64,000 nucleotides of DNA, taken from Pelagomonas calceolata. Lineage: Eukaryota. The number at the start of each line of letters is the position of its first letter. Within the stretch, counting starts at the first letter, position 1. The notes beneath the pieces were generated by a model. It saw only the letters and a list, made by a program, of their open reading frames with translations. It searched no databases and was not told the origin of the DNA. This document shows, one piece after another, positions 6,770 to 61,333 of this stretch. The position numbers and the translations under genes are program-made. The stretch is from positions 310,001 to 374,000 of the forward strand of contig CAKKNE010000001.1 in NCBI GenBank assembly GCA_918797485.1, in the 5' to 3' direction.

Positions 6770-8574
6770 TTAGCGGACCCATACAGACCCAACACCCAGT
6801 CGATCGAGGGCCCCCTGGATCACGGACGACGCGCGCACGCCCATCGTGTAGGCCGGCTCGTCGTCGCGGATCTCCAGCCTTTGCTTCATGCGCCGGTTCC
6901 CGTTCAAGACTCCGCGAGAAGCCAATTCGTTCGCCGCCTCGTATCCAGAAACAAGAGCTCGTTCCTGGCACAAGCCCTTCGCGCCGTGCTCTCGAGACCC
7001 CATGCGCACCCAGTCCCCCGCGCAGCAGACGTTCTTCACCGAAGTAGCGAGGGGCGGCCGCTTCGAGAACGAGCCAGGCGAGAACCACGACACGGCGCCC
7101 TGGTAGCGCTTGACGCAGCTATCGACGACTTTGGCGTCCTTGAACCCAGCATAGGCCTCTGAGAGTAACTTCATCTCGAGCTCGACGATCGCTTGATCAG
7201 AAAGAGGCGCGATCGCACCCGAATTGTAAAAGTCCGCACTCAACACGGAACCCTGCACGTCATCATCACCCCACAACTCCTCCAAATTATCTTTCTGGAG
7301 CTGGTCCAACATAAAGAAGGTCCCGCCCGCGCCTGTGTGGAAATCAAAATTTTACGGCGCGTTTCGCGTCGACCTCCACGCCATCGACGCGACACCTCGA
7401 TGGCGTGGCGACAGCTCGACGGAACCAGAACGGCCGCGTCGTCGCCGAGAAATGACTTGGTCGATTTCCACACAGGTCTAGCACCGCGTAGCTCCGGAAA
7501 CTTGGCAAAAACGCCTACTGGTGTATCTGTCTTGACAGTACGATCGAGCCAGAGTCGCACGGCGACCACATCAATAGCGTTCAATGAGGCCGACGCTGCT
7601 AGGTCCGGCGCTGCCTTCGACAGCTCCGTAGAAGAAGCTAGGACGCGCTTCATGCCCCCTGCACCTAAAGCGAGCACGACGGCGTCGCAGGCCACCGAAC
7701 CCTCGCTCGTTTTTACGGACGTCACTTGCTCATTTTCGTACGTGAGTTGCGTGACGAACGTTCTCGGTTTTATTTTTACACCCATCTCTACTAATCGATC
7801 AGCTAGCGGCTTCAGCAAAGTCGTTTGGACCGTCCCACGAGCGAGCCATCGGACATCAAAGGACGTCTGGTGCGCCAAGGCGTAGAAGTACAACAGCTCC
7901 ATCGTGACGGCTGCCGACAGTTCTTCGGGCGGCTTGAACAACCCCACCAACAAAGTAGGCCTGAGAAAATCATCGACGAGTCGCTTCGTGACGCCGACGC
8001 GCCGAAAGAGCTCGTACGCCGTCATCCGATCATAAAGGTCAAAAATTTCCGGCGTTCTGTTGAAGTCGAGCATCGCCGCCAATAGTCCCGCGATCGACGC
8101 TCTATCTCTCAGAGGCAACCTCTTGAAGCGGTCGAACGACGCGAAGACCTGTCCGAGTGGGGAAGGTAGTTCCCTACTACCACTAAACACAGGAGCGGTG
8201 CATTCGAGACCATCGGGCGAGAAGAAACTGCTCTCCGTGAAGTCCGTGTACGCTCCCTCAATACCGAGCTCGTCTCCTAATTGATTGATGTTCGGGTAGT
8301 CCTTCCAGAAGCCCCTCATGCCGGGCTCGAACGGCTTGCCGCTGTCCGTCGTCATGCCGCTCGTCGGGTCGCCCGCATCAATCAAAGTGACGTCGCAGTT
8401 ATTTTCTGCCGCAGCCAATGCGGCGCCGAAGCCGCCCCAGCCGCCTCCCACAACTACGACCTTCGGCCTTGTCTCGGCTTCGGTGGTGGTGGCCATGCGG
8501 ACGACGGTGCGGCGCGGCGCCAGGCGCAGCGCGGTGGCTGTCGTCGCCAGGAGCAGTATTTGGTGTTTTGGCAT
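6770..8574 (-). CDS. FAD-dependent amine oxidase / carotenoid desaturase (PDS/ZDS)-like protein; exons 8574-7485 and 7332-6770
   Basis: GGGWGG Rossmann motif, AGDWV and QERALVSGYEAAN; removing intron 7484..7333 gives in-frame FPELRGAGGTFFMLDQLQ. Confidence 0.85.
7333..7484 (-). mobile_element. Introner copy 1 (152-nt GT-AG intron; element 7333-7475)
   Basis: TIRs ctgtgtggaaatc / gatttccacacag and core acgccatcgacgcg; TSD degenerate; splicing restores the frame. Confidence 0.85.
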
Positions 8575-9113
8575 CGTAATGCGATTCGTGTCCTGTCCTC
8601 TGTGAGAGCTGTGCCCACCTAGGTGTTATTGCTGCTCTGTAGCTGTCTATTTCGCTGCTGTTGCTGCAGCTATTCGTTCGCGAGTAGCCGTAGTATCGTT
8701 TCGCGATGAATGCTTGCAAGGCGCGTCGATATAGCGGCCGCAATCGTGGTCCAAATCCAGGCTGAGTGGATGCTTGATGCTTGTCGTCGAGGCGAGCTCG
8801 AGAGGTGCTTAGCATGCGTCTCCTAGTCAATGTAGGCCCCCTGAGATAGATAAAAGGCGCAACGCAGGACGAATTAATTACGCAATCAAATCAGGTTTTT
8901 TGGCAAGCAATTTGCTCTGAGCCAAAAAGAGGCATTACAGGCAACAGGAGCAGTTTTTACACATCTGGCAGCCATATCACGGCCTGCTGCAACTGCTGCC
9001 TAAATTTCAAGCGTTTTGGAGCCTGCTAAGACCCAAAACCGCACAGACTCAAAAAAGTTGCTGCATAAAACGCGCCGCGTACGCCATCGTTGGGCTAGCG
9101 CCACAGCACAGCC

Positions 9114-10022
9114 ATGAAGCGCCTCTTCCGTCGCAAGAAAAAAGAAACGCCCCGCAAATCCAAGCCAGCGAGCATCTATTACTCGCCCGCCGCGGCGAGC
9201 ACGCCTACGGCGCTGCGCAGCGAGGAAGTTGCCGTTCCGCAGACGCCACAGGAAAGGGCGCTGGCCGACTTCGCCGCGGAGACGCCTCTCCAAACGCCAC
9301 CGACGCTGCGGACGCCCGTGCGCATGCCCAACGGCGGCACTAACCTCGATGGGGCGGACCTGCGCGACACGCTCGCGCGCGCCACCATCGACCCCGAGGC
9401 CAAGCGCCGCCTCGAAGCGTTGCTAGACCGCCTCGAGGCCGCGGAGCGCGCCGCGATGCAGACGCCCGTGAGGCGCCAGGTCTCCTGGGACCCCGCGACC
9501 GTCGAACGACCGCCGGTCGTCAGGGACGAGTCCTGGCGCAGCTTACAGAGGACGCCGTCGACGCCGACTACGCCTTCCAAACATTTGCTGTTAGCCTTCG
9601 GCCTCGACGACGCCGCGAATTCGCCGACCGCTAAACGGCGGCGGCGCGGCTACCTCTTCGCCGCGGGCGCCGTCGCGTTTGCTTGTGTGTTCGCCGGCGC
9701 GGCGCCGGCGCTGTCGCGCGAGTCGCGGCGCCGCGCCGCGCTGCGCCGGCCGCCCGAGCCCGTCGCGCCCTGTGTGGAAATCAAATTTCGGGCGCCCCAC
9801 GCCATCGACGCATACCGGTTGATGTCCACACAGGTCGCGCCCCTGGCCAAAGACACCGTGGCGGTCATTCGAGCGGCATGTCTGACGAAGAAACGGCCGC
9901 TCGCGCGGGTCGGTTGTGCGGCGCGGCTGACAATCGCTAGATTGCGAAAGCACATCGTCAAGCTCGTCGTCCTGGTTGTCATGGGCTTCTCGCCGCTGCC
10001 GTTCCTGCTGACATTTGTCTGA
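9114..10022 (+). CDS. Hypothetical membrane protein, interrupted by an in-frame introner
   Basis: 302-aa ATG ORF with hydrophobic segments; duplicated VAP...VAP around the insert. Confidence 0.6.
   Translation: MKRLFRRKKKETPRKSKPASIYYSPAAASTPTALRSEEVAVPQTPQERALADFAAETPLQTPPTLRTPVRMPNGGTNLDGADLRDTLARATIDPEAKRRLEALLDRLEAAERAAMQTPVRRQVSWDPATVERPPVVRDESWRSLQRTPSTPTTPSKHLLLAFGLDDAANSPTAKRRRRGYLFAAGAVAFACVFAGAAPALSRESRRRAALRRPPEPVAPCVEIKFRAPHAIDAYRLMSTQVAPLAKDTVAVIRAACLTKKRPLARVGCAARLTIARLRKHIVKLVVLVVMGFSPLPFLLTFV
9762..9833 (+). mobile_element. Introner copy 2 (72-nt GT-AG intron; element 9770-9833)
   Basis: Perfect 8-bp TSD gtcgcgcc at 9762-9769 and 9834-9841; TIRs present. Confidence 0.92.
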
Positions 10023-10094
10023 CGAAGCGCTATTTTATTCGGCGCCCGACGCCGTCGACGCTAGGCCTAACCTTAATAATTAAACAAGATCCCG

Positions 10095-12502
10095 TTATTG
10101 CTTCGCCCTAAGAGCCTCCAGTTCCGCCTTCGCGGCATAAAATGCTCGGACGTCCTCGTTGTCGTCCTCTTCTTTGGGCTGCGACGACTGCGTGGGCGAC
10201 ACCGCGGACTGCGCGGGCGAGGCCGGCGGCGTCGCCCACGCGTTCGTCGGTTGTTTGTTGTGCCCCCTCCTTAAAACGTGGGCGTACCACTCGTCGTACT
10301 CCTTCTGCAATTTTTTCCGACCTGACTCCAACATTTTTTGCACATGCTCGATCTCAGTTTTTAAGCGTCTCAATGATTCAAAGTTCTGCTTGTAGACCTC
10401 CTTCTCCTGGGCGATGGCGTCGATCTTCCGCTGCTCCTCCGGGTCGGCCTTTTGGAGGTCGTCCTCATTGACCACTCCCTCTATTGCTCTTTCTCTACGA
10501 ATAGCCTCTATAGATTGCTTCAAATACGCAATGGCCTTCCGCGTGGCGTTGACCTTCTCGCCACACGCTTTGGCCTCACAGTATTTTTCTTTCAGGACGC
10601 GTTTGTTGTCCTCGAGGACGTGGGCTATTCTACATTTCTCGCGGAAATACAACCAAGCTCGTTTCGGATCGTCTCGCACCTCCGCATCGTCCACATAGAT
10701 GGAGACACCTGCCACCTCATCGGGCAACCGATGCTTCATCCTCGCGCGGTCTTCAGCTAACTGCTCCCGCGGGTCCAGCCGTCGGACAGGTTCAGCTTTC
10801 TTCTCTGACGAAGGTGGCGAGAACTCCTTCGCCTCGCTCGCGATGGAGGGCGTCGGCGCGGTCCCGCCGCCGCGCGCCTGGCGGACCATGTTCACCAAAA
10901 TGGCGATCTCGTTGTCGCGTTCTTTCAGAGTAGCTTTCAACTGCTCGTCCGTCGAGCCGCCGGTGCCTTGCGAAGCTAAAGCTTGGAGGACCATGTTCTT
11001 GAGCAGCGCGAAGCAGTCCCGGATGCGCGTTAACGTCAAGGGCGCGACGCGCAACGTCTCGTCCGGGTCCCGCGACTTCACGTAGACCTCACACGCACTA
11101 TGCAACTCAGCTCTTTCCGCATCGGTCAGCTCGTCGCCCTCGCCCGCTTCGCCCTTCAAGTAGCCGATCTCCGCTCGTAATGTCGAAACTTCGCTCTTCA
11201 ACCGTGCTATCGTGACGGAAGGATCCGTCTCTTCATTAAGGACAGCGTCGTTCTTCACCAGGGCCACCCGCTGCGCGAAGCGACACGTAGAGATCGACTC
11301 CTCGGTCTGGGGCTTCTCCGCGGAGCACGTCGCGATCATAACTGTTCTGCAGTTGCCTCCTAATGAATCTCTGAGAACGGAAGTCATCATACTGTTTCTA
11401 TAAGGAATGTGGTCCCGAGCTTTTTTGTTCTTCTCATTCAAAGCTACAATGACCATCTCGAGATAAAACAATGAGGTGTTGATGTACTTTGCCTCGTTGA
11501 GCGTGATGCCGTCGCTCTTCGTCTTGTGGACGCGCTCGGACCCCGCCAGGTCCACGAGATGTAATTTCGATCGGCGGACCTTGTCGGAGCCGCCCGCGCC
11601 CCGACATTCCAAAAATACGGTAAATAAACAATGGCTTCGGGACGACGCCTGGTTCATCGCGGTTTCACTGATGGCCCGGTTCGTGTCTCCCAAGAATAAC
11701 AAATTGAGGGCCTCCTCTTCACTGGTGGCGCGGTGCATGGAGAGGTTCCTGCGTGGACACGGTCTCGAAGACGCCATCGACGCGACAGCGTACTCTCCGA
11801 CGCGGTCCGAAACAGCTCAAAATCGAAAACGGGACCACCCACCGCCATCATTCCTGGAGACGAGTCGCGTCGATGGCGTAAGGCTCAATATCCACGCTGC
11901 GTCGCGGACCTCAGATGGAAGTTGCCGTGCTCGTCCTCCATCATGCGCACCCGCGGCAAATCTTGCAATGCTTTCGCTCCGGAAGATTCATTTAACAAAT
12001 CGAAGCCCTGCTCATTATATATTTCCATATACGACACATGGGCGGACCAGCTACAATCCGACCGTTCCCGAAAGGCCTGGAAGATCATACTGAGAGCTCT
12101 TGGTATTATACCTCTATCCTCATATCTTTCGGAACCACCAGTAATCGTGAAGGTCTTGCCCGAACCGGTCTGGCCATACGCAAACACGGTAGAGTTGTAG
12201 CCATCCAATGCGTTCTGGACGACGTGCTTCCCGACGCGGTCGAACACCTGCGCCTGCGAGATGTCCATGGGCAAGACCTGATCAAATTTAAAAGCCCACT
12301 GCGTCTTCGTGTTGTTGATGTACTCGCCGTCCTTGGTCACCGCGTCTGGGGGAATGTCCCACCTCAGACTTTGGCCCTTGCCCTCGTTGTCGCCCACGTC
12401 ATAAAACTTCGACGGGTGCTTCGTCGGGCGCATCCTTAAAAACACGGTGATGCCCTCCGATTTACGTTTCGGAGCGGCGTCATCCTTCGCCTCGGCCGGC
12501 AT
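10095..12502 (-). CDS. Kinesin-9 family motor (KIF6/KIF9-like); exons 12502-11910 and 11748-10095
   Basis: AYGQTGSGKT, NQASSRSH, LVDLAGSER, HIPYRNS motifs; spliced junction reads NFHLRNLSMHR; coiled-coil tail. Confidence 0.92.
11749..11909 (-). mobile_element. Degenerate introner-related intron, subfamily C (161 nt, GT-AG)
   Basis: Ends ctgcgtgga.../...tccacgctg, inverted pair of core motifs, body aligns with the intron at 60303-60443; splicing restores the kinesin frame. Confidence 0.75.
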
Positions 12503-12862
12503 CTTGCGTATGGGTGTCTGCTGCTACACGCTGCCCAGGGCCGCTCCGTCCGTGGGCAGTGGTCCCGAGCGCAGAGTCGTTGCGAGGCCTCGTGCGCGAA
12601 GGCCTATCGCGTGCCTGGCGGCTGCTGCGTGCGCGACGAGCAGCCCCAAAGCGGCCAGCCGGTGCGGCAGCTTTTAAGATGGCAGCACATCTGGGGGTCC
12701 TTCGCGGGCGACCGCGCGCGCGTCGCGCGGTGCGGCGATGGGAAAACGGTCGAATCAACGCCTGCTTTTTTAAATCGTCAAATTCGGGTTCGCGGTGGCC
12801 TGGCTGGCCTCCATGTAAAAAGGGAGCTTGTATCGACGCCATCGGGCTGCCCGAGGCTGTAA

Positions 12863-14041
12863 ATGATCCTCACGCAGTGCGCCGTCTGCGCCACCGAGCT
12901 TGGGCTAACCTTGGGCAAGAAATGCGGCCGCTGCAGCACGCGCTACTGCGGGCCTGAATGCCAGGTGCAGCACTGGAAGGAGGGCGGGCACGACCAGCTC
13001 TGCAAATTGATTAAAAAAGCTGGCGGCGCCGAACAGTATAATGCCAACACAAAGTACACGGAGGCAGTATCGGTCGCGGCGGAGGCGTGCGCGGAGGACA
13101 CGAAGGGCCAGACGTGCTACATCTGCACGCAGGCCCTCCATTGGAAGACGAAGGAGGGTCTCGTGCGCATGTGTGCGTGCCGCGGGACGGCGGGTTTCGC
13201 GCACGTGTCGTGCCTGGCGGAGCAGGCGAAGATTTTGGTCGCGGAAGTCGAGGAGAGCAATTTGGATCACGAGGCGAAGACTGAAAGGTGGACGCGGTGG
13301 TACACGTGCAGTCTGTGCGAGCAAGACTACCACGGCGTCGTGGCGTGCGCGCTCGGGTGGGCGTGCTGGAAGACATACTTGGGGCGGCCGGAGGAGGATG
13401 TGGTTCGGGTACTGGCGTTGAGGCAGCTTGGGAACGGTTTGCACGGTGGAGATCACGACAAGGACGCGTTGTCCGTAAGGATGGCCGAGTTGGCTATGCT
13501 GCGGCGCCTTGGCGCACCAGAAGCCAATATACTCGCCGCGCAGAGCAATCTTGCGCTCTCATATCGACAGCTTGGACGATTTGAAGAGGCCCTGCGTATG
13601 CAGCAAAAGGTATACTCTGGATCCCTGAGGCTCGAGGGCGAAGAATGTCCAAAGACCCTCGTAACAGCCCTGAACTACGCGTCGTCCCTTGTCCATCTAG
13701 GAGGCTTCGAAGAAGCCAGGACGCTGCTACGCAAAGAGATGCCCGTGGCGCGACGCATTCTCGGCGAGAGTAATGAGCTCACGCTCCAGATGAGGTGGAA
13801 TTACGCGAGGGCGCTCTACCTGAACGCCGGCGCCACGCTCGACGAACTCCGCGAGGCCGAGACTACGCTCAAGGAGACAGCACGGACCGCGCGGCGCGTT
13901 CTCGGTGCCGCAAACCCGGCTGTAGTGGGTATTGAGCACGACTTGCGAATTGCGCGAGACAGGCTCGCCGCTCGCGAAGGCGGCCGCGACGTGAGCTCCG
14001 TTTGCGACATGGTGGCCGCGATGACGCCCGGGGGACCGTAG
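12863..14041 (+). CDS. MYND zinc finger - RINGv - TPR repeat protein, copy A
   Basis: CAVC..CGRC...YC...CQ..HW....H...C (MYND); CYIC..CACRG....AHVSCL..C..C (C4HC3 RING-variant); TPR-like repeats (NLALSYRQLGRFEEAL). Confidence 0.88.
   Translation: MILTQCAVCATELGLTLGKKCGRCSTRYCGPECQVQHWKEGGHDQLCKLIKKAGGAEQYNANTKYTEAVSVAAEACAEDTKGQTCYICTQALHWKTKEGLVRMCACRGTAGFAHVSCLAEQAKILVAEVEESNLDHEAKTERWTRWYTCSLCEQDYHGVVACALGWACWKTYLGRPEEDVVRVLALRQLGNGLHGGDHDKDALSVRMAELAMLRRLGAPEANILAAQSNLALSYRQLGRFEEALRMQQKVYSGSLRLEGEECPKTLVTALNYASSLVHLGGFEEARTLLRKEMPVARRILGESNELTLQMRWNYARALYLNAGATLDELREAETTLKETARTARRVLGAANPAVVGIEHDLRIARDRLAAREGGRDVSSVCDMVAAMTPGGP
12989..13236 (+). repeat. 248-bp inverted repeat, arm 1 (partner 15276-15523)
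   Basis: Base-by-base identical, by eye, to the reverse complement of 15276-15523. Confidence 0.9.
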
Positions 14042-15649: not shown

Positions 15650-15760
15650 TTATACCGGCTTTGGAGACTTCTTGAGCTTGCGTGGAGACGGTATGAGGCT
15701 ACGGGCGTAGACGCCGATCGCGAGGCACCTTGACTTGCTAGTGTGTCTGACGCTAGCGAA

Positions 15761-15803
15761 CGGCGGAGTGGTCCTGACGAGGACCCGTTCGCGACTGAGT
15801 AAA
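15761..15803 (+). repeat. Direct repeat, right copy
   Basis: cggcggagtggtcctgacgaggacccgttcgcgactgagtaaa. Confidence 0.85.
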
Positions 15804-15825
15804 ATCCACACCACAACAATCATAC

Positions 15826-17873: not shown

Positions 17874-17926
17874 CGTGGGATCACGCGATGCTGCGCCGGG
17901 ACGCTCAACAGGCCAAGTGGGCAGCC

Positions 17927-19164: not shown

Positions 19165-19258
19165 AAAGAGCTTTTAGCCAGAAACCCAGCCGTGCGGTTT
19201 CCGCAGCCCTGTTTAGCGCGAAACAACGCTAAAAAAGCCAGCCAAAAAACAGGCGCAT

Positions 19259-19279
19259 CTAGCGTCGGTAAGGCACTAG
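19259..19279 (+). promoter_or_regulatory. CTAG-bounded intergenic motif
   Basis: ctagcgtcggtaaggcactag, upstream of the gene starting at 19164 (-). Confidence 0.55.
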
Positions 19280-19444
19280 CATCCGTCGCCGAGACGTAAC
19301 AATAATCCTCGAGACGGCTCTGCTTGGAGGGAACTGTGCAGTGAAAGGAAATCGCGACGGCGCGGGTCCTAGCACTATAACAGGAAATCCGCGTAGGCGG
19401 ACGACGCTTTAGAAAAAAGAAAAATACACCACAAAAACAATTAG

Positions 19445-19996: not shown

Positions 19997-20133
19997 GGTG
20001 CTGCTTAGCGGTGCCGCGCTCGCTTGTGCAGCGGCAGACGTGTCGGTAGGTGATCACTGCGTCTCGCGTTAAAACGCTGCGCTGCGTGCACGGCCAATCA
20101 AGCTCCAATACAGTCTCGAGCTCGAGCGCGCAC

Positions 20134-24090: not shown

Positions 24091-25364
24091 TAAGGTGCCC
24101 GGTAGGCGTAGGCCGACACCTCGACGCTGCCGAGGGCGGTCCGGTGTCTGTACAAAAAGTCCTCGGGCCCCGCCGCCCGCCGCTCGGGTTCTACGCTAAA
24201 CCAGGACTTCTCGACGAGCGGCCGCGGCGCGCCGAGCGAGAACTCCGGGCGCGCGCCGAGGTCGACGACGCAGCCCCCGAGGAGCGAGTCGGCCATGTAC
24301 GTATTGCGCGAGTAGAACAGCAATTTGACCGTCGTCGCGCCGCGAGCCTCGAAGGTGAGCTCCTCGTTCCAGCAGGGCGACGTCGTCCGCCGCCGGCACG
24401 CCGTCTCGCGCGTCTGATCTCCATAAACCGCCCGCACGTAGGGGTGCGTCGCGCCGACGGCCTCAAACCCATAGCCGCCCCCAAACAGCCGCCGCGCGCG
24501 GTGCACCTTGACCACGAGTTTGTTCTTGCTCTCGTCCGGCGCGCGCGAGACTTCGACGTCGACTTGTTCGGAATCGATGGTCTCCTCGAAGCAGCTCGGC
24601 AGGAGGCAGCCCGCGGGCTCGTCGTCGACGACGACCACTCTGACCGGAGTTTCGCGCTGCTTCTTCGCCGAGAGCCGCTGCCGTCGCGGCCTGTGTGGAA
24701 ATCAAAATTTTACGGCACGTTCTGAATCGTCGCGTCGTCCTTCACGCCATCGACGCGACGCCTGATCGATGGCGTGGCGATGTCGGTTCCTCACCGCTCG
24801 ACGGAGCCAGCGCGGCCACGTCATTGCCGAGAATGACGTAGTGAGCACCTGACGCACTGGTTGATTTCCACACAGGCCGCGGCTTGCGCGTCTGCTCGAG
24901 CCGGTCGCGCGCCGCGGCGGCGGCTTGCACCTGGGGCCGCGCGGCCTCGGGCGCGACGAGGCCCGGCGGCGACGTCGGCGGCGTCGGCGTCGCAGGTGGC
25001 GCGAACGTCGCGTCCTCGAAGACGGCCGCCAGGAACGGCGTCGCCGCGGCCTCCTCGCGCTTCCGCCGCTCCAGCGCCCGCTCGGTCGCCTTGAGCTGCT
25101 CGCGCAGCAGCAGCGAGCTTCGGCGTCGTCGTCGTCGTCGTCCTCTTTTTCCGCTTCCGGCGGCGCGCCCTCTTCGTCCGGCGGCGGCCGCGGCGCGCGC
25201 GCGCAGCAGACGCGTTCCGCGGCCGGCCGCGCGGCGGCGCTGTCGAAGCCCAGCAGCGTGTTTGCGAGGGGCGACCCGCTGCGGGTGGGCTTCGCCTCCT
25301 CGGTGACGACGTGCGTCTCGACGGCGGGGCGGTTCGTCGCGGGGGCGAGGGGCGGGCGCTCCAT
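24090..25364 (-). CDS. C2 domain-containing protein (one introner; frameshifts in the GC-rich 5' part)
   Basis: LVVKVHRARRL...HPYVRA...PCWNEELTF...DSLLG C2 pattern; splice gives TRKPRRQRLSAKKQ. Confidence 0.65.
24691..24883 (-). mobile_element. Introner copy 4 (193-nt GC-AG intron; element 24691-24875)
   Basis: TSD gtcgcggc (24683-24690) / gccgcggc (24876-24883); perfect 13-bp TIRs; body aligns with copy 1. Confidence 0.9.
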
Positions 25365-25648: not shown

Positions 25649-28057
25649 TCATTTCTTCATGACGTTCCGCTGGAGCCACTCCAGCGCGCCCGCCTGCCAC
25701 CCGACCGGCATGCCGAACACGGATCCGGGCGCGGCGTCCTCGATCCGCGTCGCGAGGCGCACGCCCTGGTCGATGGCGCGCTTGGCGTCCAACTCGCCGG
25801 CGTGCTCGGCACCGCCGATGGCATACACTGGAAATTTTGGATCATTCCGGAGCTCGCGGAACAAGTCGTCGACGGACGTCTGGCCCGCGCAGAGCACGAC
25901 GTCCGTCACGTCGAGGACGCGCTCCGCGCCGGCCACTTCGATGCGGAAACCGTCGGCCTCGACTCGTTTATACGTCACGCCGCGCAGGAAGTCGACGCCG
26001 CGCTGGCGCAGCGCCTTGCGGTGAATCCAGCCCGTCGTCTTGCCCAATCCGGCGCCGAGCGGCGTCGCCTTGCGCTGGAGCAAGTACACAGTCCGCGGCG
26101 GCGCCACATTCGATGGCTCAGCTAAACCCGAGCCGCGCGGCGCGGTGTCGACGCCTGTGTGGAGATCAAATTGTCGCGGTGCTTCGAATGAGCGTACCCA
26201 ACACATTGGTTGCTTTCTACACAGGTCGACGCCCCACTCGCCGTAGAAGTCGTCGCCCGAGCGGTGCGTGAGGAACTCGGACACGTCGAATCCAATCCCG
26301 CCCGCGCCGACGACGGCGACGCGCGGGCCGACTTTTGTCGCGCCCGAGAGCACGTCGGCGTACGAGTGGACGCGGACGTTCGCCGACGACGCGAGGCCCT
26401 CGACGACCCGCGGCCGCACGCCCGTCGACACCACTACCCTATCAAAGTCTTTCACGGTCGACGCATCCACATACGTATTCAACCGCACATCCACAGAATG
26501 CACGTCGAGCATCGTGCGAAAGTAGCGCAGCGTCTCCCAGAACTCCTCTTTGCCCGGCACCGCCGCGGCCAGCAGGAACTGGCCGCCCACCCGTTCCGAT
26601 TGCTCGAACAGCGTCACGCGGTGGCCCCGTTCACCGAGAGCGCACGCCGCGCTCAAGCCCGCCGGCCCGGCGCCGACGACGGCAACCTTCAGAGGCGTCG
26701 CCGTCCTCGTCAACTCGAGCGACGTCTCGTGGCCGGCGCGCGGGTTGACCTGTGTGGATATCGAATTTCGGGCGCCCCACGCCATCGACGCGACGTCATC
26801 CTCGTAATTGCGTCTGCTCGACGGCGTTCACTGTTTGATTTCCACGCAGGGCTTCACCAGGCACGACACGGGCATCATCTTGAAGGTATGATCTAAACAA
26901 GCCTGGTTGCAGGCAATGCACGTATTGATCTCATCCTCCCTTCCATGAAAGGCCTTCTCGATAATGCTAGAGTCGGCGAGGAAGGGCCGCGCCATGGAAA
27001 CGACGTCCGCACCTTGCTCCAGCACGTCTTCGCACGTTTCGGCGCTGTTGATGCGGTTCGTGGCGCACATGAGCGGTGCTTGCCCGTACTTTGATAACAA
27101 AGCTTCTCGCACATTAGTAGTCGCAAACGCGAACGCACCTCTAGGAACACAAGTGGCGATCGTCGGCACCCTAGCTTCGTGCCAGCCGATGCCCGTGTTG
27201 AGGATGTCCACACCACAAGCATCCAACAAATGAGCTAGCTCGACGACCTCGCCGAAGGCCATGCCGTTTTCAACTAATTCCAGCATGGACAGCCGGAAGA
27301 CCACCGCAAAGTCCGGGCCCGCGGCTTTTCTTACGGCTTGTACCACGTCTAGAGCTAAACGACTCCGGTTCTCGAAGGACCCGCCATACGCATCTCCCCG
27401 TTGATTCGTGCGCTCGGCCAGGAACTCGTTTATCAGATAACCCTCCGAGCCCATGATCTCCACACCGTCGTAGCCGCAGCTCCTCGCTAGCGCTGCCGTG
27501 CGCGCAAAGTCGTCTATAGTAGATTGTACGTCTTTTTCTGACAAAGCCCGCGGCGTGACCACGTTAATTGGTGCCTTCTTCTTGGACGGAGCGACGGCGA
27601 AGGGGTGGTAGGCGTACCGTCCCGCGTGTAGTATTTGCAAGGCGATCTTACCGTTGTTCTCGTGGACCGCATCAGTAACGACTTTGTGCTCCTCGGCCTC
27701 GGCTACAGTCGACATCTTGCCCGCGAGCGGCAGCACCCAGCCTTCCCTATTGGGAGCCACGCCTCCGGTAACAATGAGTCCAGCACCGCCTTTCGCGCGT
27801 TCCGCGTAGAACGCGGCCATTTCTTTGAGGCCTCTGTGCTCTTCCAAGCCGGTGTGCATCGAGCCCATCAAAGACCGGTTCCTGATTTCAAGGCCGCACG
27901 GCAAGGTGAGGGGACTGAACAAGCGCGGGTACGTGGCGTGCGGCTGCTCCGCGGTCGAGGAGCAGAAGGGCGCGTCGTCGTCGTCGCTGCGCGGCAGGGC
28001 GGAGAGCGGCCTCGCCGTTGCGCGCCGGCCGCCGACGGCGGCGAGGCGGCGGAGCAT
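25649..28057 (-). CDS. fadH: 2,4-dienoyl-CoA reductase, FadH-type (OYE barrel + 4Fe-4S + FAD); exons 28057-26858, 26749-26233 and 26154-25649
   Basis: MGSMHTGLE, EIMGSEGYLINEF, CIACNQACLDH, SCLVNPRAG after splicing, GAGPAG, LGKTTGWIHR, ELDAKRAI; Arg-rich transit peptide. Confidence 0.93.
26155..26232 (-). mobile_element. Introner copy 5 (78-nt GC-AG intron; element 26155-26224)
   Basis: Perfect TSD gtcgacgc at 26147-26154 and 26225-26232; TIRs with a few mismatches. Confidence 0.88.
26750..26857 (-). mobile_element. Introner copy 6 (108-nt GT-AG intron; element 26750-26849)
   Basis: TSD gggttgac/ggcttcac (6/8); removal restores the conserved CLVNPRAG. Confidence 0.9.
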
Positions 28058-32635: not shown

Positions 32636-32806
32636 CCGTGCGGAAATCAAATCTTCTCGCATGCGGTTGCTTCATGGACTCCACGCCATCGACGCGACGT
32701 CTGCTCGACGGCGTGGCGGTGTGGGTCTTACGCCCCTCGATTCAGCCATCGTTGTCGCCTAGAAGTGAGCCCGACTCACTCGACTCACCGCTTGATCTCC
32801 ACACAG
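32636..32806. mobile_element. Introner-family copy 7 with mutated left TIR; host strand uncertain
   Basis: ccgtgcggaaatcaa...gatctccacacag; TSD gcttggtc/gcggggtc (6/8); core motif present. Confidence 0.8.
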
Positions 32807-33230: not shown

Positions 33231-35256
33231 ATGGAGAGCCCCGACCTCACACAGACGCAGGCCGACGCCTGCGCCGCGCACAAGTGCAGCAACGGCGAAG
33301 AGAACAATGTGCCGCCACCATCCGTCCAGCGCGCGGGCAATGGACAGCCCAGACAGCCCCTCGCGGCCCTCGGCGCCGCGCGCGACGCGCCGGAGCGCGA
33401 GCCGCAGCGCGAGTTCATTCCGCTGTCGGACGGCGAGCGCGCGGAGCTTCTCGCGTATCTCGCGGAGGAGGCGGCGGCGCAGCCGCCCGCCCCAAAAGTA
33501 GCTCAAGACCCCTCGGCTCGTAAGAGACGAGCGGACGCCTCGCGGCGGCCAGAGGTCATGAAGCGGTGGACGTCGACGCCCACGCCGCTGCGGCGCTGGA
33601 CGACGCGTACGCACCGCGGGATCGGGTTTGTATGGCGGGTACTGGAGCGACCTACCCGAAGCACGAGTGGGACTGGGTGTACCTCAAGCACGAGGACCAG
33701 CGCAAGCGCACCATCGAGATCCTGGAGGGCCTCGGCTACCTCAACGTCGCCGACGACGTCGTCAACAAGGTCAGCCGGTTGTACTTCGACAACCGCGAAA
33801 CGTTAAGTCCTCTCGAGTGTTGCAACGACATGAGGGAGGCGGCGCTCACCAAAGCATCGTGGAACCGCCTCATCAACAAGATCCTCAACTACATGATGAC
33901 CTACGACCCCAACCGGGCGGGCCCCGAGCCGGCGCACGGGCCGATCCTGCGGCAGATGTGGGCGGAGCTCCAGAAGGTCGGCATCACGGTCAATGGTGAT
34001 GTGGAGGGCAAGTTGGCGGGCCTGGGCGTCAAGGGCGCCTACAGCTCCTGCCACATGAGCGGTGACACGGCCGAGCTGTCGAAGGCGTCGTCGCTCTTCC
34101 ACAAGCTGTGGATCGTAGCGGCGACGAGGGACAAATTGGACCCGATCATCAAGCAGACCATCGACTGCTCGTTCGGCAACGCCACGGCGAACTCGGGCGA
34201 GATCGAATCGCTGCGCACGGACAAGCACGGGAGCTTCCACGGCGCCGCGAACGACGTCGCGCCCCTCTGCAAGCGCTACGTCAACCCGCAGCACGCGCGC
34301 GCCGCGAACGAGATGTTCCTCGGCCGCGGGGCGGTGCCGCGCGGCACGAAGCTGTTAATAGGCAACTTCGGCAAGGACGTGATCGCCCACGCGATTGAAC
34401 GCGGCTGCTTCGGGAAGTATGCACGTTGTCCGAGTCGTAGACACTTCAACTTGCGGCGCGACGGCGTCGGCCTCCGCGCCATCGACGCGGCGTGGTCCTC
34501 CAGAACTCACGTCGAGAGAACGCCCCTTCGCGACGACCTCACGGTTGGTCCGCGCAGTTCCGATGCATCGACGTCGGCGGCCTCGACTTTCGGAGGCTGC
34601 CGCTCTCGGAGATCTGCTACACTGGGGACAAGGGACGCGGCCGGCTCCGAGACGACTTCGACGAAGTCGATAGATTGTTAGAAGAGAAGTATCCTGGGGT
34701 CCACAAGGTGCACGACTTTTTGAGACAGAACGGGCTGCGGGACGCGCTGCGCGGGAACAAGCCTACGAGGACGCGCGGGGCGAGGCAGATCGTCACCCCG
34801 ACGTGTACGTTGTTCCAGGGCCTCGCCACCGGACACACGCTTGTGATCAAGTCCTTCAGAGCCCTGACCGTCTCCGCCGGAATGGTCTACGGGAATCCGG
34901 AGTCGCTGGATTTGTTGCAGGGCTGGGACGACGACTGGGCGGAGAAGGCGGCTTTAGAAACGTCCATCGATTGTAAGATATCGGACCTCGAGATGGCGAC
35001 CGTCGACGCGTCCGACTTAGCGAAGGTGGGGGGCGCGCGGCCGTGGGAGTCCATCACGGTGCCCAAGCGCCGCATCACCGAGAACCAGCACGGCGAGCCG
35101 GTCCTCAAGAAGCTGCGCGACGAGGGCAAGAAGCCGGCGACGTGCTTCGCCTGCGGCAACAAGTTCCTGTATGGGGGCGGCCTGACGGCGGGCTTCCGGT
35201 GCGCGCGCGGCACGAAGCCGGGCTGCGGGAGCCGCGGCCAGACGAAGCTTGACTGA
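33231..35256 (+). CDS. Orphan protein with C-terminal Cys cluster; probable intron 34421-34557
   Basis: Strong GC3 bias across ORFs 33566.. and ..35256; a phase-0 GC-AG splice joins them; CFAC...C...C at the C-terminus. Confidence 0.55.
34421..34557 (+). mobile_element. Highly degenerate introner-like intron
   Basis: Core gccatcgacgcg and end ggttggtccgcgcag; donor ambiguous. Confidence 0.45.
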
Positions 35257-39194: not shown

Positions 39195-41574
39195 ATGGAC
39201 TCCATCCTGCAGAACCTCTCCCACAAAGCAGAGCCATGCGCACAGAAGGATAGTACCGTGGCGCCGCCGCCGCCGCCGCAGCGCAAGCTGACGATCCGCC
39301 TCCCGGTTGGGTCGCATAATTCGTGTGAAGCCGCCGCCTCGACCGCGCCCCAGAAGGACGTGGACGCCATCCTGAGGAACCTGGCCGGCTACCGGCCGCC
39401 GCCGCCCGGCCCGCAGCTCTTTGGGCCGCCGCCCAAGGCCCGCGCCAAGCCCACGCTTCAGCGGACGACGCCGCGCGCGCCCGACGCGGGCCCGCTGCCG
39501 TCGATCCTCGAGCTGCTCGAGCAGCACGTCGCCGCCCGCCCGACGAGCGAGGCGCCGCCGACGGCCGAGGAGACCCTCGCGGCGCTGGGCGCGCCCGGCG
39601 ACGATGAGGCGCCGCCGACCGCGCCGCCGACGGCCGAGGAGGCCATGGAGGCGCTGGGCGCGCCCGGCGACGATGAGGCGCCGCCGACCGCGCCGCCGAC
39701 GACCGAGGAGGCTATGGAGGCGCTAGGCGTGCCCCGCTACGTCCGAGACGCTCTGCGGGCGCCGCCGACGGCCGAGGAGGCTACGGAGGACGTCCGAGAC
39801 GCCCCGGCGCCGCCGCCGCCCGCGCGGAAGAAGCGGCGGCTGAGCGGCTTCGGCAGCACCCCGAAGTTCCCCGCGAAGCTCTTCGAGATGGTCTCGCACC
39901 ATTCAAATGTTATTACTTGGGAAAACGGCCGCCTCGTCGTCCGCGACCAGGCGCGGCTCTGCGCCGAGCTCATGCCGCGGTACTTCACGGTCAAGACCGG
40001 GACGGCGACCTTCCCGTCCTTCGCGCGCCAGCTCAACTACTACGGGTTTTCAAGAGCGAAGACGGGCGCGGACCTCGCCTACGTGCACCCGGGCGTGGCG
40101 AAGGTCGAGGACCTCGCGACGCTGGCCCGCAAGGACGAGCCGGCGCGGAAGAAGCCCAAGGCGTCGGAGGCCGTCGAGGTCGTTTCTCTGGAGGAGCACC
40201 GCCGCGTCGTCGCGGAGCGCGATATGTTAAGGGAGGAGGTGTCAAAGCTGCGCAAGGCCCTGGCGCAGGCCGAGGCCGCGCTGCCAATCCACACGGCCGA
40301 GGCCGTCCGCCAGGGCGACCGGCCCGATCCACGCCTCTACTTAGCCGACTCAGCAACCAGTAAAGATGTCTGCGCCTTTTGTGGGAAGCATCATGGCACG
40401 CCGAACGCCGACGGCACGCTCGAGGGTGATTTGCTGTTCCCGCCCTTCCGCGGGAACGATGGGAAGCCGGTCTGGGTCCACGCGCAGTGCGCGTTGTTTA
40501 GTGCCGAGGTCCACGGCGAGCGCGAGGGCGACCTGTACAACGTGTTGGCTGCGGTCAAGCGGGGCCGGTCGTTGAAATGCGCCGCGTGCGGCGAGCGCGG
40601 CGCGACGGTGGGCTGCGGCGAGAAGCGCTGCTCGAAGTCCTTCCATTTGAGATGTGCTGCGGCCCACGGGCTGTTGCAGGGCGAGACGACGTTCCACTGC
40701 CGGAAGCACGCGAGTTGGCCGGACGCCGTGCAGTGCGACCGCTGTTTTAAATGGAGAGCCTGGGACTGTGTGGAAATCAAATTTCGGGCGTCTTACGCCA
40801 TCGACGCGACGTGCTTTCCGTAGCTATCAACGCGACTTTGTCCCCGTGGCCGCGTCGGCTCGATGATGTGGAGGTTCAGGATAACCTAACTCACTGTTGG
40901 TTTCCACACAGGCCTGGAAGACCGTAGATAAAACGACGGGGCGGCCCGCTCCTTTGCCTGAGGGCGACTGGTTCTGCGAGCTGAACGAAGATACGACTTG
41001 TAATAGTTGTGAAGTGAAGGCATCAATTACGTCGCCCGAGGCCGTCGAGCCCGACCGACGGGGCGACGCGGTCGCCATTGAGGGTCAAAAGTGCGCGTTC
41101 TGCCTGTCTCCGTCGTTATCCTTACTTGAATCCAAGGCGCCGGGCGGTTTGTGCACGAGGCCACTGAAAGACGGTCCCAAAAGTGTCTTCCACCACGCGG
41201 CCTGCCTGGCGCTCGCGCCGGAGGTCGTGCGGTCGGGCGGCCACGTCTTCCGCGGGCTGAGCGCGTTGCGGCGCGGGCGCCTGCTCAAGTGCTTCTCCTG
41301 CGGGAAGCGCGGCGCCACGGTGGGTTGTGGCGTGAAGGAGTGCCCGCGGAGCTTCCACGCGCCCTGTGCGTTATTCAGATCTGGAGGCTGCGTCGACGAG
41401 GGCAACGGCGAGTCGTCGAACGTCTTCTACTGCAGCGCGCATCGTAACAAAGGGACGGACCGGTGGGTGTCGTGCAGCCACTGTAGCGCGTGGCGGCGCT
41501 GGAAGGGCCCCGTCGACGCGACGGGCGGCGAGCGTTGCTGGCGCCCGACGCGCAGCCAACCTGTGCGGAATTAG
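39195..41574 (+). CDS. HSF DNA-binding domain + extended PHD + CW zinc finger + second ePHD/CW protein; exons 39195-40757 and 40912-41574
   Basis: FPAKLFEMV..VITW..FPSFARQLNYYGF (HSF); WVHAQCALFSAEV..C..CGERGATVGC...C.KSFHLRCA (ePHD, twice); VQCDRCFKWR..WFCELN..C (CW). Confidence 0.85.
39545..39790 (+). repeat. Coding tandem repeat (EAPPTAPPTAEEAMEALGAPGDD, about 66-bp unit)
   Basis: Visible in both DNA and protein. Confidence 0.8.
40758..40911 (+). mobile_element. Introner copy 9 (154-nt GC-AG intron; element 40766-40911)
   Basis: TSD gcctggga/gcctggaa (7/8); removal restores the CW finger KWRAWKT. Confidence 0.92.
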
Positions 41575-51300: not shown

Positions 51301-52544
51301 CTAGAACGCCGCGAGCGACGACTGCGACGCCGTCCGTAATGGCGGCGCGGCGAAGCGCTCGCGCAGCCACCGCACATAAGGCCGCTCGACGTGGACCTCG
51401 TACAGCGCCGCCAGCATATACAGCGTCAACGCGAAGGCCACGAAATTCTCCGCGTGATCGCTCGTGGGCAGGCCGAGGCCGTAGAAGACGGCGTGGACGG
51501 GCCACTGGAAGAGGTAGACCTCGAAGGAGCACTTGCCGATTGATGACAAAGCGGGATGGGCAAAGAGTTTTGATGCTTTCGAGGCTGCGGCCGTGTCGCG
51601 CGCCGCCGCCCACAGAAATACGGCGAAGAGCGGCGCTAGCCCGTGGTCGTACAGGACCTCGCCGTGCTCGCGGTAGTCCAAGTGCGGGTTCGGGACGAGG
51701 AGCACGGCGAGCGTTATGATGAAGACGGCGCCGTCCGCGAGCCAAGCCGTGTTTTCTCTTGACGAGCGAGCCGCGAGCTCGGCACTGACGCAACCCAACA
51801 GAAAATCCGCCAACTGCGCCGGCGGCCAGAGGTAGAGCGCCGTGTGGGCGGAATTGTTGAAGTAGGCGCCCGCTCTCAAGCCACCGGAGACGAATAGCAA
51901 CGCTATCAAAGACGGTACGATTGCGAGGACGACCGCCACGACCATCAAATGCCGTCGCTCGTAGAGGAACGGGTCGTAGAGCACCGGATAGAGGAGCCAC
52001 GACGGCGCAAGGGCCGCGACCGTCCAGGACTGGCCGTCGGGGCACCACCGGTTCGGGGACCGCCACCTGTGTGGAAATCAAGTCGCGTCGATGGCGTGGG
52101 GCGCCCGACATTTGATTTCCACACAGAACGCCACGGTTCTACGAGAAACGCACAAAGCGTCAGGTGCATCGCGTCCAGGTCGCCGTTCCCACCCAGATAC
52201 AATAGGATAGCGGACACGCCCATGGCCAGCCACACCGCCAGGAGCACGCGGCCGAAGCGCCGCCCGTACCAGCGCTTGGCGTCAGGCCAACGATTCGCCG
52301 ATTGCGAGAATTTACCGCGCGCCGCCCAGTGCGTCACAAAACCGCTCAGCACGATGAAGTAGTCCACGGCGCAGTTGCTCCGCCAGAGGCTCTTTACCAA
52401 CGGGCCGTCGCTCGAGTGCGGTAAGAAGTGCTGGCACACGATCCAGAGCGACGCTAACCCGCGCGAGCCGTCAACAAAAGGTAGGCGCTTGCGCGGCGGC
52501 TGGGTCTCGGCGGTGGGTTGTTGCGGGATGGCGTCGTAGGCCAT
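51301..52544 (-). CDS. Acyltransferase-3 (OafA-like) membrane protein; exons 52544-52135 and 52066-51301
   Basis: DGSRGLA...H, AVDYFIVLSGFV, RRFGR, SWT, IGKCSFEVYLFQWPV, VERP. Confidence 0.88.
52067..52134 (-). mobile_element. Introner copy 10 (68-nt GT-AG intron; element 52067-52126)
   Basis: TSD accgccac/aacgccac (7/8); perfect 15-bp TIRs; removal restores VEPWRSPNRWCPDGQSWT. Confidence 0.92.
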
Positions 52545-59176: not shown

Positions 59177-59284
59177 AGCTTGTCTTTCCGTGTTGATCCG
59201 TGTAAATTTCCAAAGAAACCATTGCGATATGAATTATTACAGCCTTGGGGGGGATAGTGGGGCGGGGCGCTCCGCTAGCTACGT

Positions 59285-61333
59285 CTAGGGGCTCCAGTCC
59301 TTGCAGTACTCGTTCTTGAGCGGCTCCGGCGAGGGCCCGACCAACATGGCCGTCGTGCAGCCCACGACGACGAGCGTCATGACCCAGCCGCCGCAGGCCC
59401 GCAGGAATAATTCCTTGTTGACGCCCTGGCAGCCCTCAAATAAACCGACGGCGACGGTCGCGCCGATCTGGCAGTGCGTTGTGGAGAGGGGCCAGCCCTG
59501 GCCCGTGCCGTAGATCACCACTAAAGCAGCACCCAGTTCGATACAAGACCCTCTAGAAGGCGTAATGGCGATCAATTTCACGCCCATGGCGTTCATGATC
59601 TTGTAGCCGTAGGTAGCCAAACCGACCACAATACCCACGCCACCCAAAGCCAAAATCCAGAGCATGGTCCCCGGGTCCATCTCGGCCTGCTTCACGACTT
59701 TCCCCTTCTTGTACGCCACGTACGCGGCCGCGAAGGGGCCCATCGCGTTGGCCACGTCGTTCGCCCCGTGCGAGAAGGAATCCACAATAGCCGTGAAGAT
59801 CTGGACGTACCTGAAGAACTGCTCGGCCCGCGGGTCGTGGCGCGTGACGTTGTCGTGAATCGCGGCCACCTTCGCGTCCGTATCTAGGTCTTTATGGGTA
59901 TCTCTGTCGAGCTGGCCCGTGATGTACGACATGCCCGACTTCTTCTTCTCCTCCTTCTGCGCGGGCTCCGCGTCCCGCGTGTTCTCCTCGTCGGCGGCTT
60001 CCTTCCGGACGCCCGCGGCGGCCCGTTCCGCGAGCGCGCGGTTCGCGCCGACGACGTCGCCGCTGTCGATCCTCTTTGAGAGGGTCGGCACCATGGCGCC
60101 GGCGACGACGCCGGCGGCGATGGACGGATATAAACCAACTAAAAGAGCGGGCCACAAATTGCCGGCCTTGGCCTCCCTCGTGAGTCGGCAGGTTCTAAAT
60201 CTTTCACATTGCCCCTTCGTGCCCTTCAGGATCCAATACGACACATTAATCCACACGACGACCAACACAATAAGAGGGAAGAAGATCTTGCACCGGAAGT
60301 ACCTGCGCGGAGCATCGTGGGTCGACTCGGTCCGAACGGCCTCAAACTCGAAAAAGAAACCACCCACGACCTCGTCTGATGGACACGAGTCGCGTCGATG
60401 GCGTGAAGGCACCGCCGCACCGCGGGACGCCGAGATCGTACGCGCGTCGCCCCTCATAACCGCGAACTTCACAATTCCATACAGTATGGCCGCACAAATA
60501 CCAGAAGCGATCGGCGAGAGGAACCAACTCGCGACGATCTCGGCGACGCCGTCGAGCCAGGGGAAATTTTCAAACGCCATGTTCGTCGTGCCGTTGCCAT
60601 AGTCGTTTCTCGTGTAGTTCCAGATGACGCATCTCGAACCTCGCGTCATGAGGGCCATGCCGATGACGCCGCCGACGCAACTATGAGTTGTTGATACTGG
60701 TAATTCAAAATAGGAAGCTAGGATGAGCCAGATCGCGACAGAAATAATGACGCAGGTCATGCCGTAGATCATCAGGCCGGGATTGTCCTCGAAGCAGCCC
60801 GCGTCCGCAATACCTTTGCGGATCGTCTTGGCTACATTACTACCCATGAGGACAGCTCCGGCGAACTCGAAGACCGCCGCGAGCATGACCGCTTGGCGGA
60901 CGGTAATCGCTTTGGAGCCAACGGACGTGGCGTAGGCGTTCGCGACATCATTGGCACCAATGCCAAAGGCCGCGAAGAACGCACAAATACCGGCAGCAAC
61001 GATGTAAAAGGTCCAGTCGTCTTCGTTGAACTCCGAGCCTGCGTCGATCGCGGTTGTTTCGTGTGCGTGTCGCGTGTCGCGTGCGTGTGGATCGGGCGCG
61101 CCGCGGCGACGCTGCCCCCTCTCTTTTCACGCGGTCGCCGCGGCCCACCGACGACACGGGCGCGAGTCGTGGGCGGGAGGCGGGGGCGCGCGGTGACGTC
61201 TCCATGGGGATGGAGCAGCCCTTTGTGTTGCGGGACGCGGCGCCGCGCGCGTCGCCGCGATCTCGCTGAGCGTCATCATGATGAGCAGGATGCCAAGACC
61301 GCGCGCCATCGAGGCGCCTAGGCTGCGCGCCAT
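59285..61333 (-). CDS. PiT/PHO4-family (SLC20) phosphate transporter; introns at 60443-60303 and one ending at 61039
   Basis: GIGANDVANAYAT, PVSTTH, SHGANDVANA, PLSTTHC. Confidence 0.92.
60303..60443 (-). mobile_element. Degenerate introner-related intron, subfamily C (141 nt, GC-AG, in frame)
   Basis: Aligns with 11795-11885; removal gives MRGDAYFRCKIFFP. Confidence 0.75.

What the first reader, a model, noticed from the sequence alone, without database searches (positions are those of the whole stretch)
7333..60443. Family of intron-making MITEs (introners): about 11 copies in 64 kb
Seen: elements at 7333, 9770, 24691, 26155, 26750, 32636, 40766 and 52067 share TIRs CTGTGTGGAAATC...GATTTCCACACAG. 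Flanking 8-bp TSDs are perfect at 9762/9834 and 26147/26225, 6-7/8 in five others, and degenerate at 7333. Further degenerate relatives lie at 11749, 34421 and 60303. Removing the element plus one TSD restores conserved protein motifs (FadH CLVNPRAG, CW finger, AT3, desaturase-like). The donor (GT/GC) comes from the TSD and the acceptor AG from the TIR. Established: this mechanism is described for introner elements in the pelagophyte Aureococcus. Inference: most introns in this window come from one transposon lineage. Whether this exact family is already catalogued cannot be judged here.
Basis: partly seen in the sequence, partly recalled or inferred. Interest (0 to 1): 0.85.

Follow-up and report, generated by a model that had tools for sequence, protein, structure and literature searches.

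The report
Transposon-made introns in Pelagomonas alga
Short repeats, likely copies of one old transposon lineage, sit inside genes of the ocean alga Pelagomonas calceolata and are cut out of the RNA as introns; this is already reported for the species, and the one possibly new detail is a symmetric insertion-site bias that would help supply the splice signal.

Summary
All eight TIR pairs and the stated 8-bp TSD matches are in the sequence; controls give 0 pairs. RNA junctions appear at 6 of the 8 named sites inside the stretches laid. Protein evidence supports 9770, 40766, 52067 and 60303. The 32636 copy likely lies in a rearranged locus, and its splicing is not shown. The host is Pelagomonas calceolata. 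In 120 metagenome copies, flanks match at 8 bp only. One relative's insertion site is empty in this window. The mechanism (TSD gives the GT/GC donor, TIR gives AG, either orientation) is the known introner mechanism. P. calceolata introners are already catalogued: 956 putative elements and 11 families, including a 340-copy hAT-labelled family. I could not compare consensus sequences. Added here: target sites carry A at position 7 twice as often as expected (25 of 82 vs 12.5), like the hAT nTnnnnAn preference. No transposase was found. Earlier scan notes cover similar introners in other organisms, not this family. Real, well supported, already known.

The parts
7333..7484 (-). Intron, GT-AG, 152 nt = element 7333-7475 + 9 nt; TSD decayed; host is an FAD/amine-oxidoreductase gene
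   Evidence: Junction in 109 reads (48 starts) of X21 and in contigs of X1 and X6; Pfam
9762..9833 (+). Element 9770-9833 plus perfect TSD; predicted GT-AG intron of 72 nt, in frame and without a stop, in a gene of no Pfam family
   Evidence: No junction row listed (low depth, 5 rows hidden). 84 of 101 homologs span the site without the 24 aa; 8 of 101 read into an element there
11749..11909 (-). Old degenerate relative; GT-AG intron of 161 nt in a KIF9-type kinesin gene
   Evidence: 44 reads (29 starts) and contigs of X1, X6, X10; kinesin Pfam model splits at position 164; profile E 0.0006
24691..24883 (-). Intron, GC-AG, 193 nt = element 24691-24875 + one TSD (7/8), in a C2-domain gene
   Evidence: 13 reads (9 starts) and an X6 contig; Pfam
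26155..26232 (-). Intron, GC-AG, 78 nt = element 26155-26224 + one perfect TSD, in the FadH-like gene
   Evidence: 57 reads (33 starts) and contigs of X6, X10, X15
26750..26857 (-). Intron, GT-AG, 108 nt = element 26750-26849 + one TSD (6/8), in the FadH-like gene
   Evidence: 41 reads (26 starts) and contigs of X6, X10, X15
32636..32806 (+). Element with a damaged left TIR at a likely rearranged junction. It precedes the 3' part of a plus-strand hydrophobic protein gene (32807-33091); its left flank belongs to an unrelated minus-strand ORF. Splicing not shown
   Evidence: No junction row listed (177 hidden). Relatives join a different upstream exon to this 3' part, and one reads into the element; minus ORF homologs
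34421..34557 (+). Old degenerate relative; GC-AG intron of 137 nt
   Evidence: 75 reads (35 starts) and an X6 contig; profile E 0.003
40758..40911 (+). Element 40766-40911 plus TSD (7/8); predicted GC-AG intron of 154 nt that splits a CW zinc finger
52067..52134 (-). Element 52067-52126 (reverse orientation) plus TSD (7/8); predicted GT-AG intron of 68 nt in an acyltransferase-3 gene
   Evidence: Acyl_transf_3 model positions 2-99 and 121-319 lie in different frames on either side; open frame after removal
60303..60443 (-). Old degenerate relative; GC-AG intron of 141 nt, in frame, in a PHO4 phosphate transporter gene
   Evidence: MMETSP transcript protein P0001 matches the window ORF from its residue 33 on, apart from this 47-aa gap; profile E 0.004
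9978..9985 (+). Empty 8-bp target site starting with GT; two related proteins read into a family element here
   Evidence: P0184 and P0207 continue into element sequence at this point, 83 of 101 homologs do not, 16 do not reach it
3383..3546 (+).
   Evidence: 149 reads; profile E 0.001 over 40 nt; TSD register 3/8

Best explanation
These repeats are introner elements of Pelagomonas calceolata: short TIR-bounded copies with 8-bp target duplications, likely inserted by a hAT-like transposase acting in trans, and six of them are shown by RNA to be spliced out. Shown: both ends carry the same TIR, so either strand ends in CAG, and the donor is the GT or GC at the start of the upstream TSD copy. 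Removing the element plus one TSD restores the pre-insertion mRNA length. Inferred: the elements are old and non-autonomous; full length is about 200 nt in two subtypes, and shorter copies are internal deletions. The intron-side TSD copy and the 5' TIR decay after insertion, which explains 7333, 11749, 34421 and 60303. Also inferred: surviving insertions are those with a donor on the sense strand, probably helped by a symmetric target preference.
For: TIR pairs and TSDs against controls. RNA junctions at 6 of 8 laid sites, each in raw reads plus contigs of 1-3 other runs. Protein continuity at 9770, 40766, 52067 and 60303. In 120 metagenome copies, mean flank identity is 0.77 at 8 bp and 0.21-0.32 at the other lengths from 3 to 12. 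68 of 68 copies with TSD at least 7/8 have GT/GC in register on at least one strand, against about 31% of background 8-mers. Both orientations occur, 19:26. A site occupied in two relatives is empty in the window. Host identity. Published P. calceolata introners have the same splice geometry.
Against: No junction was listed for 9770 or 32636, though tables were truncated. The 32636 copy is probably not a working intron here. No autonomous element was found. The only long TIR pair among the metagenome loci (L038, 1313 nt) reads as an inverted duplication of a host gene with an element in each arm. The stored part of the species' annotation table lists one Tc1-like transposase and no hAT domain; that file was cut. 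The three degenerate copies are tied to the family only by weak scores. PolyA RNA holds much unspliced element sequence from other loci, so not every copy is removed.
Confidence: 0.92

Rival explanations
1. MITEs jumped into introns that already existed, and the splice sites are older than the elements.
For: In the three degenerate copies and at 7333 the TSD register is poor (1-4 of 8), so element and intron ends cannot be matched exactly there.
Against: At 24691, 26155 and 26750 the skipped length equals element + 8 exactly, and the acceptor is the last two bases of the TIR. In 68 of 68 well-preserved metagenome copies the GT/GC sits exactly at the TSD start. A relative's insertion site is uninterrupted coding sequence in the window.
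Confidence: 0.04
2. The introns spread by RNA reverse splicing or intron transposition, and the flanking repeats are chance matches in GC-rich DNA.
For: No transposase was found. The introns fold into long hairpins closed by the TIRs (no shuffle control).
Against: There is a sharp 8-bp duplication that differs from site to site, and elements occur in both orientations relative to the donor strand. Neither is expected from reverse splicing, and both are expected from staggered DNA cuts (established transposon biology; hAT example).
Confidence: 0.03
3. Insertion was sequence-neutral, and the symmetric bias in the TSDs comes from selection or codon/word composition. This rivals only the target-preference step.
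For: GT enrichment at positions 1-2 (59 of 82, against 691 of 2322 in background) is also what selection for strong donors would give. The genome is rich in CGAC-type words. All copies examined are survivors, mostly in genes.
Against: Positions 7-8 are outside the donor. They are still enriched against a background matched for phase and donor: A at 7 in 25 of 82 vs 12.5 expected (p about 5e-5), RC at 7-8 in 25 vs 13.5 (p 0.0015).
Confidence: 0.45

Closest known systems
P. calceolata putative introner elements (Guerin et al. 2022, PMC9481584; main-text passages and Supplementary Note 3 read)
   Same: Same species. The paper reports 956 putative IEs with GT and GC donors, an AG acceptor, conserved TIRs and an intron length peak near 210 bp; element plus TSD is 211 nt for the longest copies seen here.
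   Different: The text I saw gives no TSD length, orientation data, subtypes or target bias. Fig. S3 (logo) is a picture and Table S3 was not seen, so the TIR letters could not be compared.
P. calceolata introner family 'fam2' (Gozashti et al. 2025, PMC12130899; passages and 11 supplement table rows read)
   Same: 340 copies, TE length 202 bp, 13-bp TIR, donors gt:281 and gc:42, 'co-opt 5' carry 3'', final class TIR DNA / hAT. Here the longest copies are 203 nt, the TIR is 13-15 bp, and the splice geometry is the same.
   Different: TSD columns are NA for fam2. The consensus is not in the 14 supplement files searched, so identity with fam2 (or fam1, 3, 39) is likely but untested. The 60-150 nt deletion derivatives may be split among other families there.
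Aureococcus anophagefferens introner elements (Huff et al. 2016; paper not held; seen only as described in Roy et al. bioRxiv 10.1101/2020.10.14.339549, passages, and recalled)
   Same: [quoted passage not shown]
   Different: Different genus. The copies here are divergent (median 84-90% between full-length copies) with many decayed TSDs. Sequence homology to Aureococcus elements was not tested.
hAT transposons such as Hermes (PMC10368747; passages read)
   Same: 8-bp TSD, short TIRs, repeated subterminal motifs, and a 5'-nTnnnnAn-3' target preference similar to the bias found here.
   Different: No transposase is in hand. The TIR starts CTG, whereas the usual hAT start is recalled as YAR (from memory, no call).

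Membership tests
Introner (TIR/TSD type, Aureococcus-like) | Related sequences form whole introns at unrelated gene positions | tested here: met
   RNA junctions at 6 sites in 5 genes; shared profile hits
Introner (TIR/TSD type, Aureococcus-like) | Terminal inverted repeats | tested here: met
   12-15 of the first 16 nt are complementary in all 8 elements; not intact in the 3 degenerate copies
Introner (TIR/TSD type, Aureococcus-like) | Site-specific target duplication of fixed length | tested here: met
   0.77 at 8 bp vs 0.21-0.32 at other lengths in 120 copies; 38 perfect, 33 at 7/8
Introner (TIR/TSD type, Aureococcus-like) | One splice site carried (3' AG in TIR), one co-opted from the TSD (5' GT/GC), with no change in mRNA length | tested here: met
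   Skipped length equals element + 8 at 24691, 26155, 26750; +9 at 7333
Introner (TIR/TSD type, Aureococcus-like) | Introns made in either orientation | tested here: met
   19 vs 26 of 47 single-donor copies, 2 unassigned; both arrangements occur in the window
Introner (TIR/TSD type, Aureococcus-like) | Presence/absence of the intron between close relatives | tested here: met
   Element read at the 9986 site in 2 of 85 homologs that reach it; the site is empty in the window DNA. Gain versus precise loss is not polarised, and the DNA behind those proteins was not fetched
Introner (TIR/TSD type, Aureococcus-like) | Insertion into nucleosome linkers | not testable with these tools
   No nucleosome data
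P. calceolata fam2 (Gozashti 2025) | Sequence identity to the family consensus | not testable with these tools
   TIR and core motifs have 0 occurrences in 14 supplement files; only length, TIR size and splice class agree
hAT superfamily | 8-bp TSD | tested here: met
hAT superfamily | Symmetric nTnnnnAn target preference (Hermes) | tested here: inconclusive
   A at 7 enriched twofold; T at 2 is confounded with donor selection; no unselected copies were tested
hAT superfamily | TIR start like other hAT elements (YAR..., recalled) | tested here: inconclusive
   TIR starts CTGTG; the reference consensus is recalled and comes from no call
hAT superfamily | Autonomous copy with the same TIRs encoding a hAT transposase | not testable with these tools
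   No genome held; none seen in 120 short metagenome loci; no hAT domain in the stored, cut annotation table. Filed as hAT-like, not as a hAT member

The most novel reading that the evidence does not exclude
The element is pre-adapted to make introns at both steps. Its TIR supplies a CAG acceptor on either strand, and its transposase's own palindromic target preference (roughly GY-NNNN-RC, hAT-like nTnnnnAn) supplies the GT/GC donor on either strand. Intron gain then follows from transposase chemistry and not only from selection after near-random insertion. The family is also polymorphic among wild Pelagomonas populations, which makes the bias and the gain rate measurable in ocean metagenomes.
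Probability: 0.4. Interest if true: 0.55.

Novelty: already known. Interest (0 to 1): 0.3.

Why it matters
Introners are the best-documented route to mass intron gain, and this is a clean RNA-verified case in one of the most abundant open-ocean algae. The phenomenon is already published for this species. What could still matter is the target-site bias: if intrinsic, it would explain why some TIR families become introners and others do not. The mix of intact, decayed and polymorphic copies also shows how a new intron loses its transposon signature.

Tried and rejected
(1) Own genome: none held, so there was no genome-wide census or transposase search. (2) Viral-contig scan for the 16-nt TIR: 13 matches, none with the internal motif or a TIR pair, treated as chance. 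(3) L038, the only long TIR-to-TIR span (1313 nt): its flanks are reverse complements and it reads as an inverted host-gene duplication, so I rejected it as an autonomous element. Unpaired ends in L028, L117 and L128 showed no right TIR; only L028 was translated, and it was read by eye and not scanned against Pfam. (4) The first palindrome test (p 4e-6) used the wrong null, which did not fix the sense strand. It is replaced by the phase- and donor-matched test. (5) '81 of 82 stop-free after removal' takes the best of three frames in GC-rich DNA without a control and is not used as evidence. (6) 32636 as a minus-strand intron: rejected because the acceptor AG is mutated and no GT/GC donor is in register. 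(7) The site-B count failed through a pattern slip and was redone. (8) Paper searches for a target-preference statement found 0 papers. These cover only the held library and not Huff 2016, so they do not show that it is unpublished. (9) RNA folds had no shuffle control. (10) Metatranscriptome X15 matches at low share were not used for habitat or strain claims.
Full report
1. Observation. The window is 64.0% GC. The elements are 143, 64, 185, 70, 100, 171, 146 and 60 nt long. Their 8-bp flanks match at 2, 8, 7, 8, 6, 6, 7 and 7 positions. Thirty order-4 Markov sequences gave 0 TIR pairs and a mean of 0.07 exact internal motifs, against 12 in the window.

2. Host. The PHO4 ORF at 59288-61126 finds an MMETSP transcript protein, P0001. 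Its 90% cluster contains CAH0375691.1 of Pelagomonas calceolata. The next named hits are other pelagophytes at 54-57%. The species' non-centromeric GC is given as 63%. RNA contigs of the same organism lie on the window over 2 kb with no other letters. No whole genome is held.

3. Splicing. Two stretches were laid, 15700-35600 and 1-12800, together 32.7 of 64 kb and 8 of the 11 named sites. Junctions were listed at 6 of the 8. They are 7333-7484 (109 reads), 11749-11909 (44), 24691-24883 (13), 26155-26232 (57), 26750-26857 (41) and 34421-34557 (75), each also in contigs of 1-3 other runs. For 24691, 26155 and 26750 the skipped length is the element plus exactly 8 nt. At 7333 it is plus 9, which fits an indel in the intron-side TSD copy (inference). 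No row was listed for 9770 (depth about 17 per direction, 5 rows hidden) or 32636 (177 rows hidden).

4. Sites without an RNA junction. For 9770, 84 of 101 homologs span the site without the 24 inserted residues; 17 do not span it in frame, and 8 of the 101 read into an element there. For 60303, P0001 matches the window ORF from its residue 33 on, except for a 47-aa gap. For 52067, Acyl_transf_3 positions 2-99 and 121-319 fall in different frames on either side. For 40766, zf-CW positions 2-12 and 11-33 do the same, with weak E-values. For 32636, the right flank is the GC3-rich 3' part of a plus-strand gene. Relatives join a different upstream exon to it, and one reads into the element. The window's left flank is an unrelated minus-strand ORF. 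This copy is likely a relic at a rearrangement.

5. Share of introns. Nine intron-like junctions were listed. Six belong to the family. One (3383-3546) scores weakly (E 0.001). Two (1164-1672 and 6132-6271) show no similarity. A further likely intron near 61037-61258, inferred from a protein alignment only, also shows none. 'Most introns' is supported for the laid half of the window, with truncated tables.

6. Family anatomy elsewhere. The pattern favours intact copies. There were 121 TIR pairs: 120 of 59-203 nt and one of 1313 nt. Among the 120 with flanks, mean flank identity was 0.77 at 8 bp and 0.21-0.32 at the other lengths from 3 to 12; 38 were perfect and 33 matched 7 of 8. After removing duplicates (116), all 68 copies with at least 7/8 had GT or GC at the TSD start on at least one strand, against about 31% of background 8-mers. 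Orientation relative to the donor strand was 19:26. Copies of at least 185 nt fall into two subtypes with median identity 0.90 (12 copies) and 0.84 (13 copies) over aligned columns, which is a lenient measure. The family is therefore old. Locus L117 joins the TIR to the internal sequence seen at 11749 and 60303, which links those degenerate copies to the lineage (read by eye).

7. Polymorphism. P0184 and P0207 run through the 9770 site uninterrupted and then read into a reverse-oriented family element at window position 9986. In the window that site is a single 8-mer starting with GT. 83 other homologs are uninterrupted there and 16 do not reach it. Whether each protein comes from DNA or RNA is unknown, but the site is empty in the window's own DNA.

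8. Target bias. Of 114 distinct sites, 82 had a TSD of at least 6/8 and a GT/GC end; 32 were dropped. The background was GT/GC-starting 8-mers of the same flanks, matched for phase and donor. Against it, the exon copy had A at position 7 in 25 (12.5 expected, p about 5e-5), R at 7 in 57 (42.1) and RC at 7-8 in 25 (13.5, p 0.0015). Positions 4 and 5 were not enriched. Ten tests were run per copy. Hermes, a hAT element, prefers 8-bp nTnnnnAn targets (PMC10368747, passages). An intrinsic symmetric preference would put GT/GC on either strand. This step is inferred: all copies are survivors, and composition or selection is not excluded. My first version of the test used a wrong null and is withdrawn.

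9. Mechanism. Shown: symmetric TIRs that end in CAG on both strands, an 8-bp duplication, a donor at the TSD start, and exact removal. Inferred: mobilisation in trans by a hAT-like DDE transposase, selection for copies with a sense-strand donor, and later decay of the intron-side TSD and the 5' TIR. Not found: the transposase.

10. Comparison with what is known. Guerin et al. 2022 (PMC9481584; passages and Supplementary Note 3 read; Fig. S3 is a picture, Table S3 and file 5 not seen) report 956 putative introners in P. calceolata with GT/GC donors, AG and TIRs. Gozashti et al. 2025 (PMC12130899; passages and supplement rows) list 11 families for the species. Their fam2 has 340 copies, 202 bp, a 13-bp TIR, 'co-opt 5' carry 3'' and a hAT label; no consensus letters were found in its supplements. 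Gozashti et al. 2022 (PMC9860276; passages and supplement rows) list introners in two Pelagomonas MAGs; the four family rows seen, all from one MAG, give TSD and TIR as '?'. Huff et al. 2016 was not held. Its Aureococcus pattern is taken from Roy et al. (bioRxiv 10.1101/2020.10.14.339549, passages) and from recall, and it may already discuss target-site logos. The review PMC11282704 (passages) does not name the species. Searches for a published target-preference link gave 0 papers in the held library. Earlier notes of this scan hold nothing by sequence, and by words only introners of other organisms.

11. Verdict. It is a known kind in a species where it is already reported, probably the catalogued fam2 and its deletion derivatives. 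Interest 0.3. The target-bias reading has probability about 0.4 and would deserve about 0.55.

Noticed in passing
window 24691-24875: PolyA RNA holds a large amount of unspliced element sequence from other loci, on both strands: depth about 1,500 and 2,600 at 24765, and about 2,000 reads continuing into foreign sequence at 24876. Some copies are retained in abundant transcripts or UTRs.
   Followed up: no
window 12863-14041 (+) and 14525-15649 (-): Inverted pair of paralogous MYND/TPR genes; 413 nt at 93%.
   Followed up: no
window 2201, 2267, 4378, 4469, 18174 and others: Single-base indels seen in nearly all RNA reads and in contigs of other runs, likely assembly errors in the window. Sites 11490, 12274 and 34841 show about half-and-half alleles.
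   Followed up: no
window 32085-33091: A minus-strand ORF abuts the 3' fragment of a plus-strand hydrophobic protein gene at the 32636 element. Environmental homologs of both parts have many different N-termini, which suggests a rearrangement-prone locus.
   Followed up: partly
window 60441-60443: The PHO4 intron uses a GC donor 2 nt out of TSD register. Environmental read-through proteins (P0079, P0086, P0088) continue in another frame, consistent with alleles that lack those 2 nt and have a GT donor in register, which would be donor sliding.
   Followed up: partly
window 9770-9833: Environmental proteins read into an element at this same site but with different internal sequence (P0200-P0203, P0205, P0208), which suggests internal deletions continue after insertion.
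   Followed up: partly
window 18009 and 63071: Isolated exact copies of the 13-nt internal motif without TIRs; possible remnants.
   Followed up: no
window 1164-1672: 509-nt intron in the 5' region of a light-harvesting (chlorophyll a/b-binding family) gene. It is spliced in X21 but read through in X6 and X10 contigs and is unrelated to the family.
   Followed up: no
L038:153-1465: Head-to-head inverted duplication of a gene start, with a family element in each arm.
   Followed up: partly
window 39552-39789: 69-nt coding tandem repeat, 3.4 copies, in an HSF/PHD/CW-domain gene.
   Followed up: no
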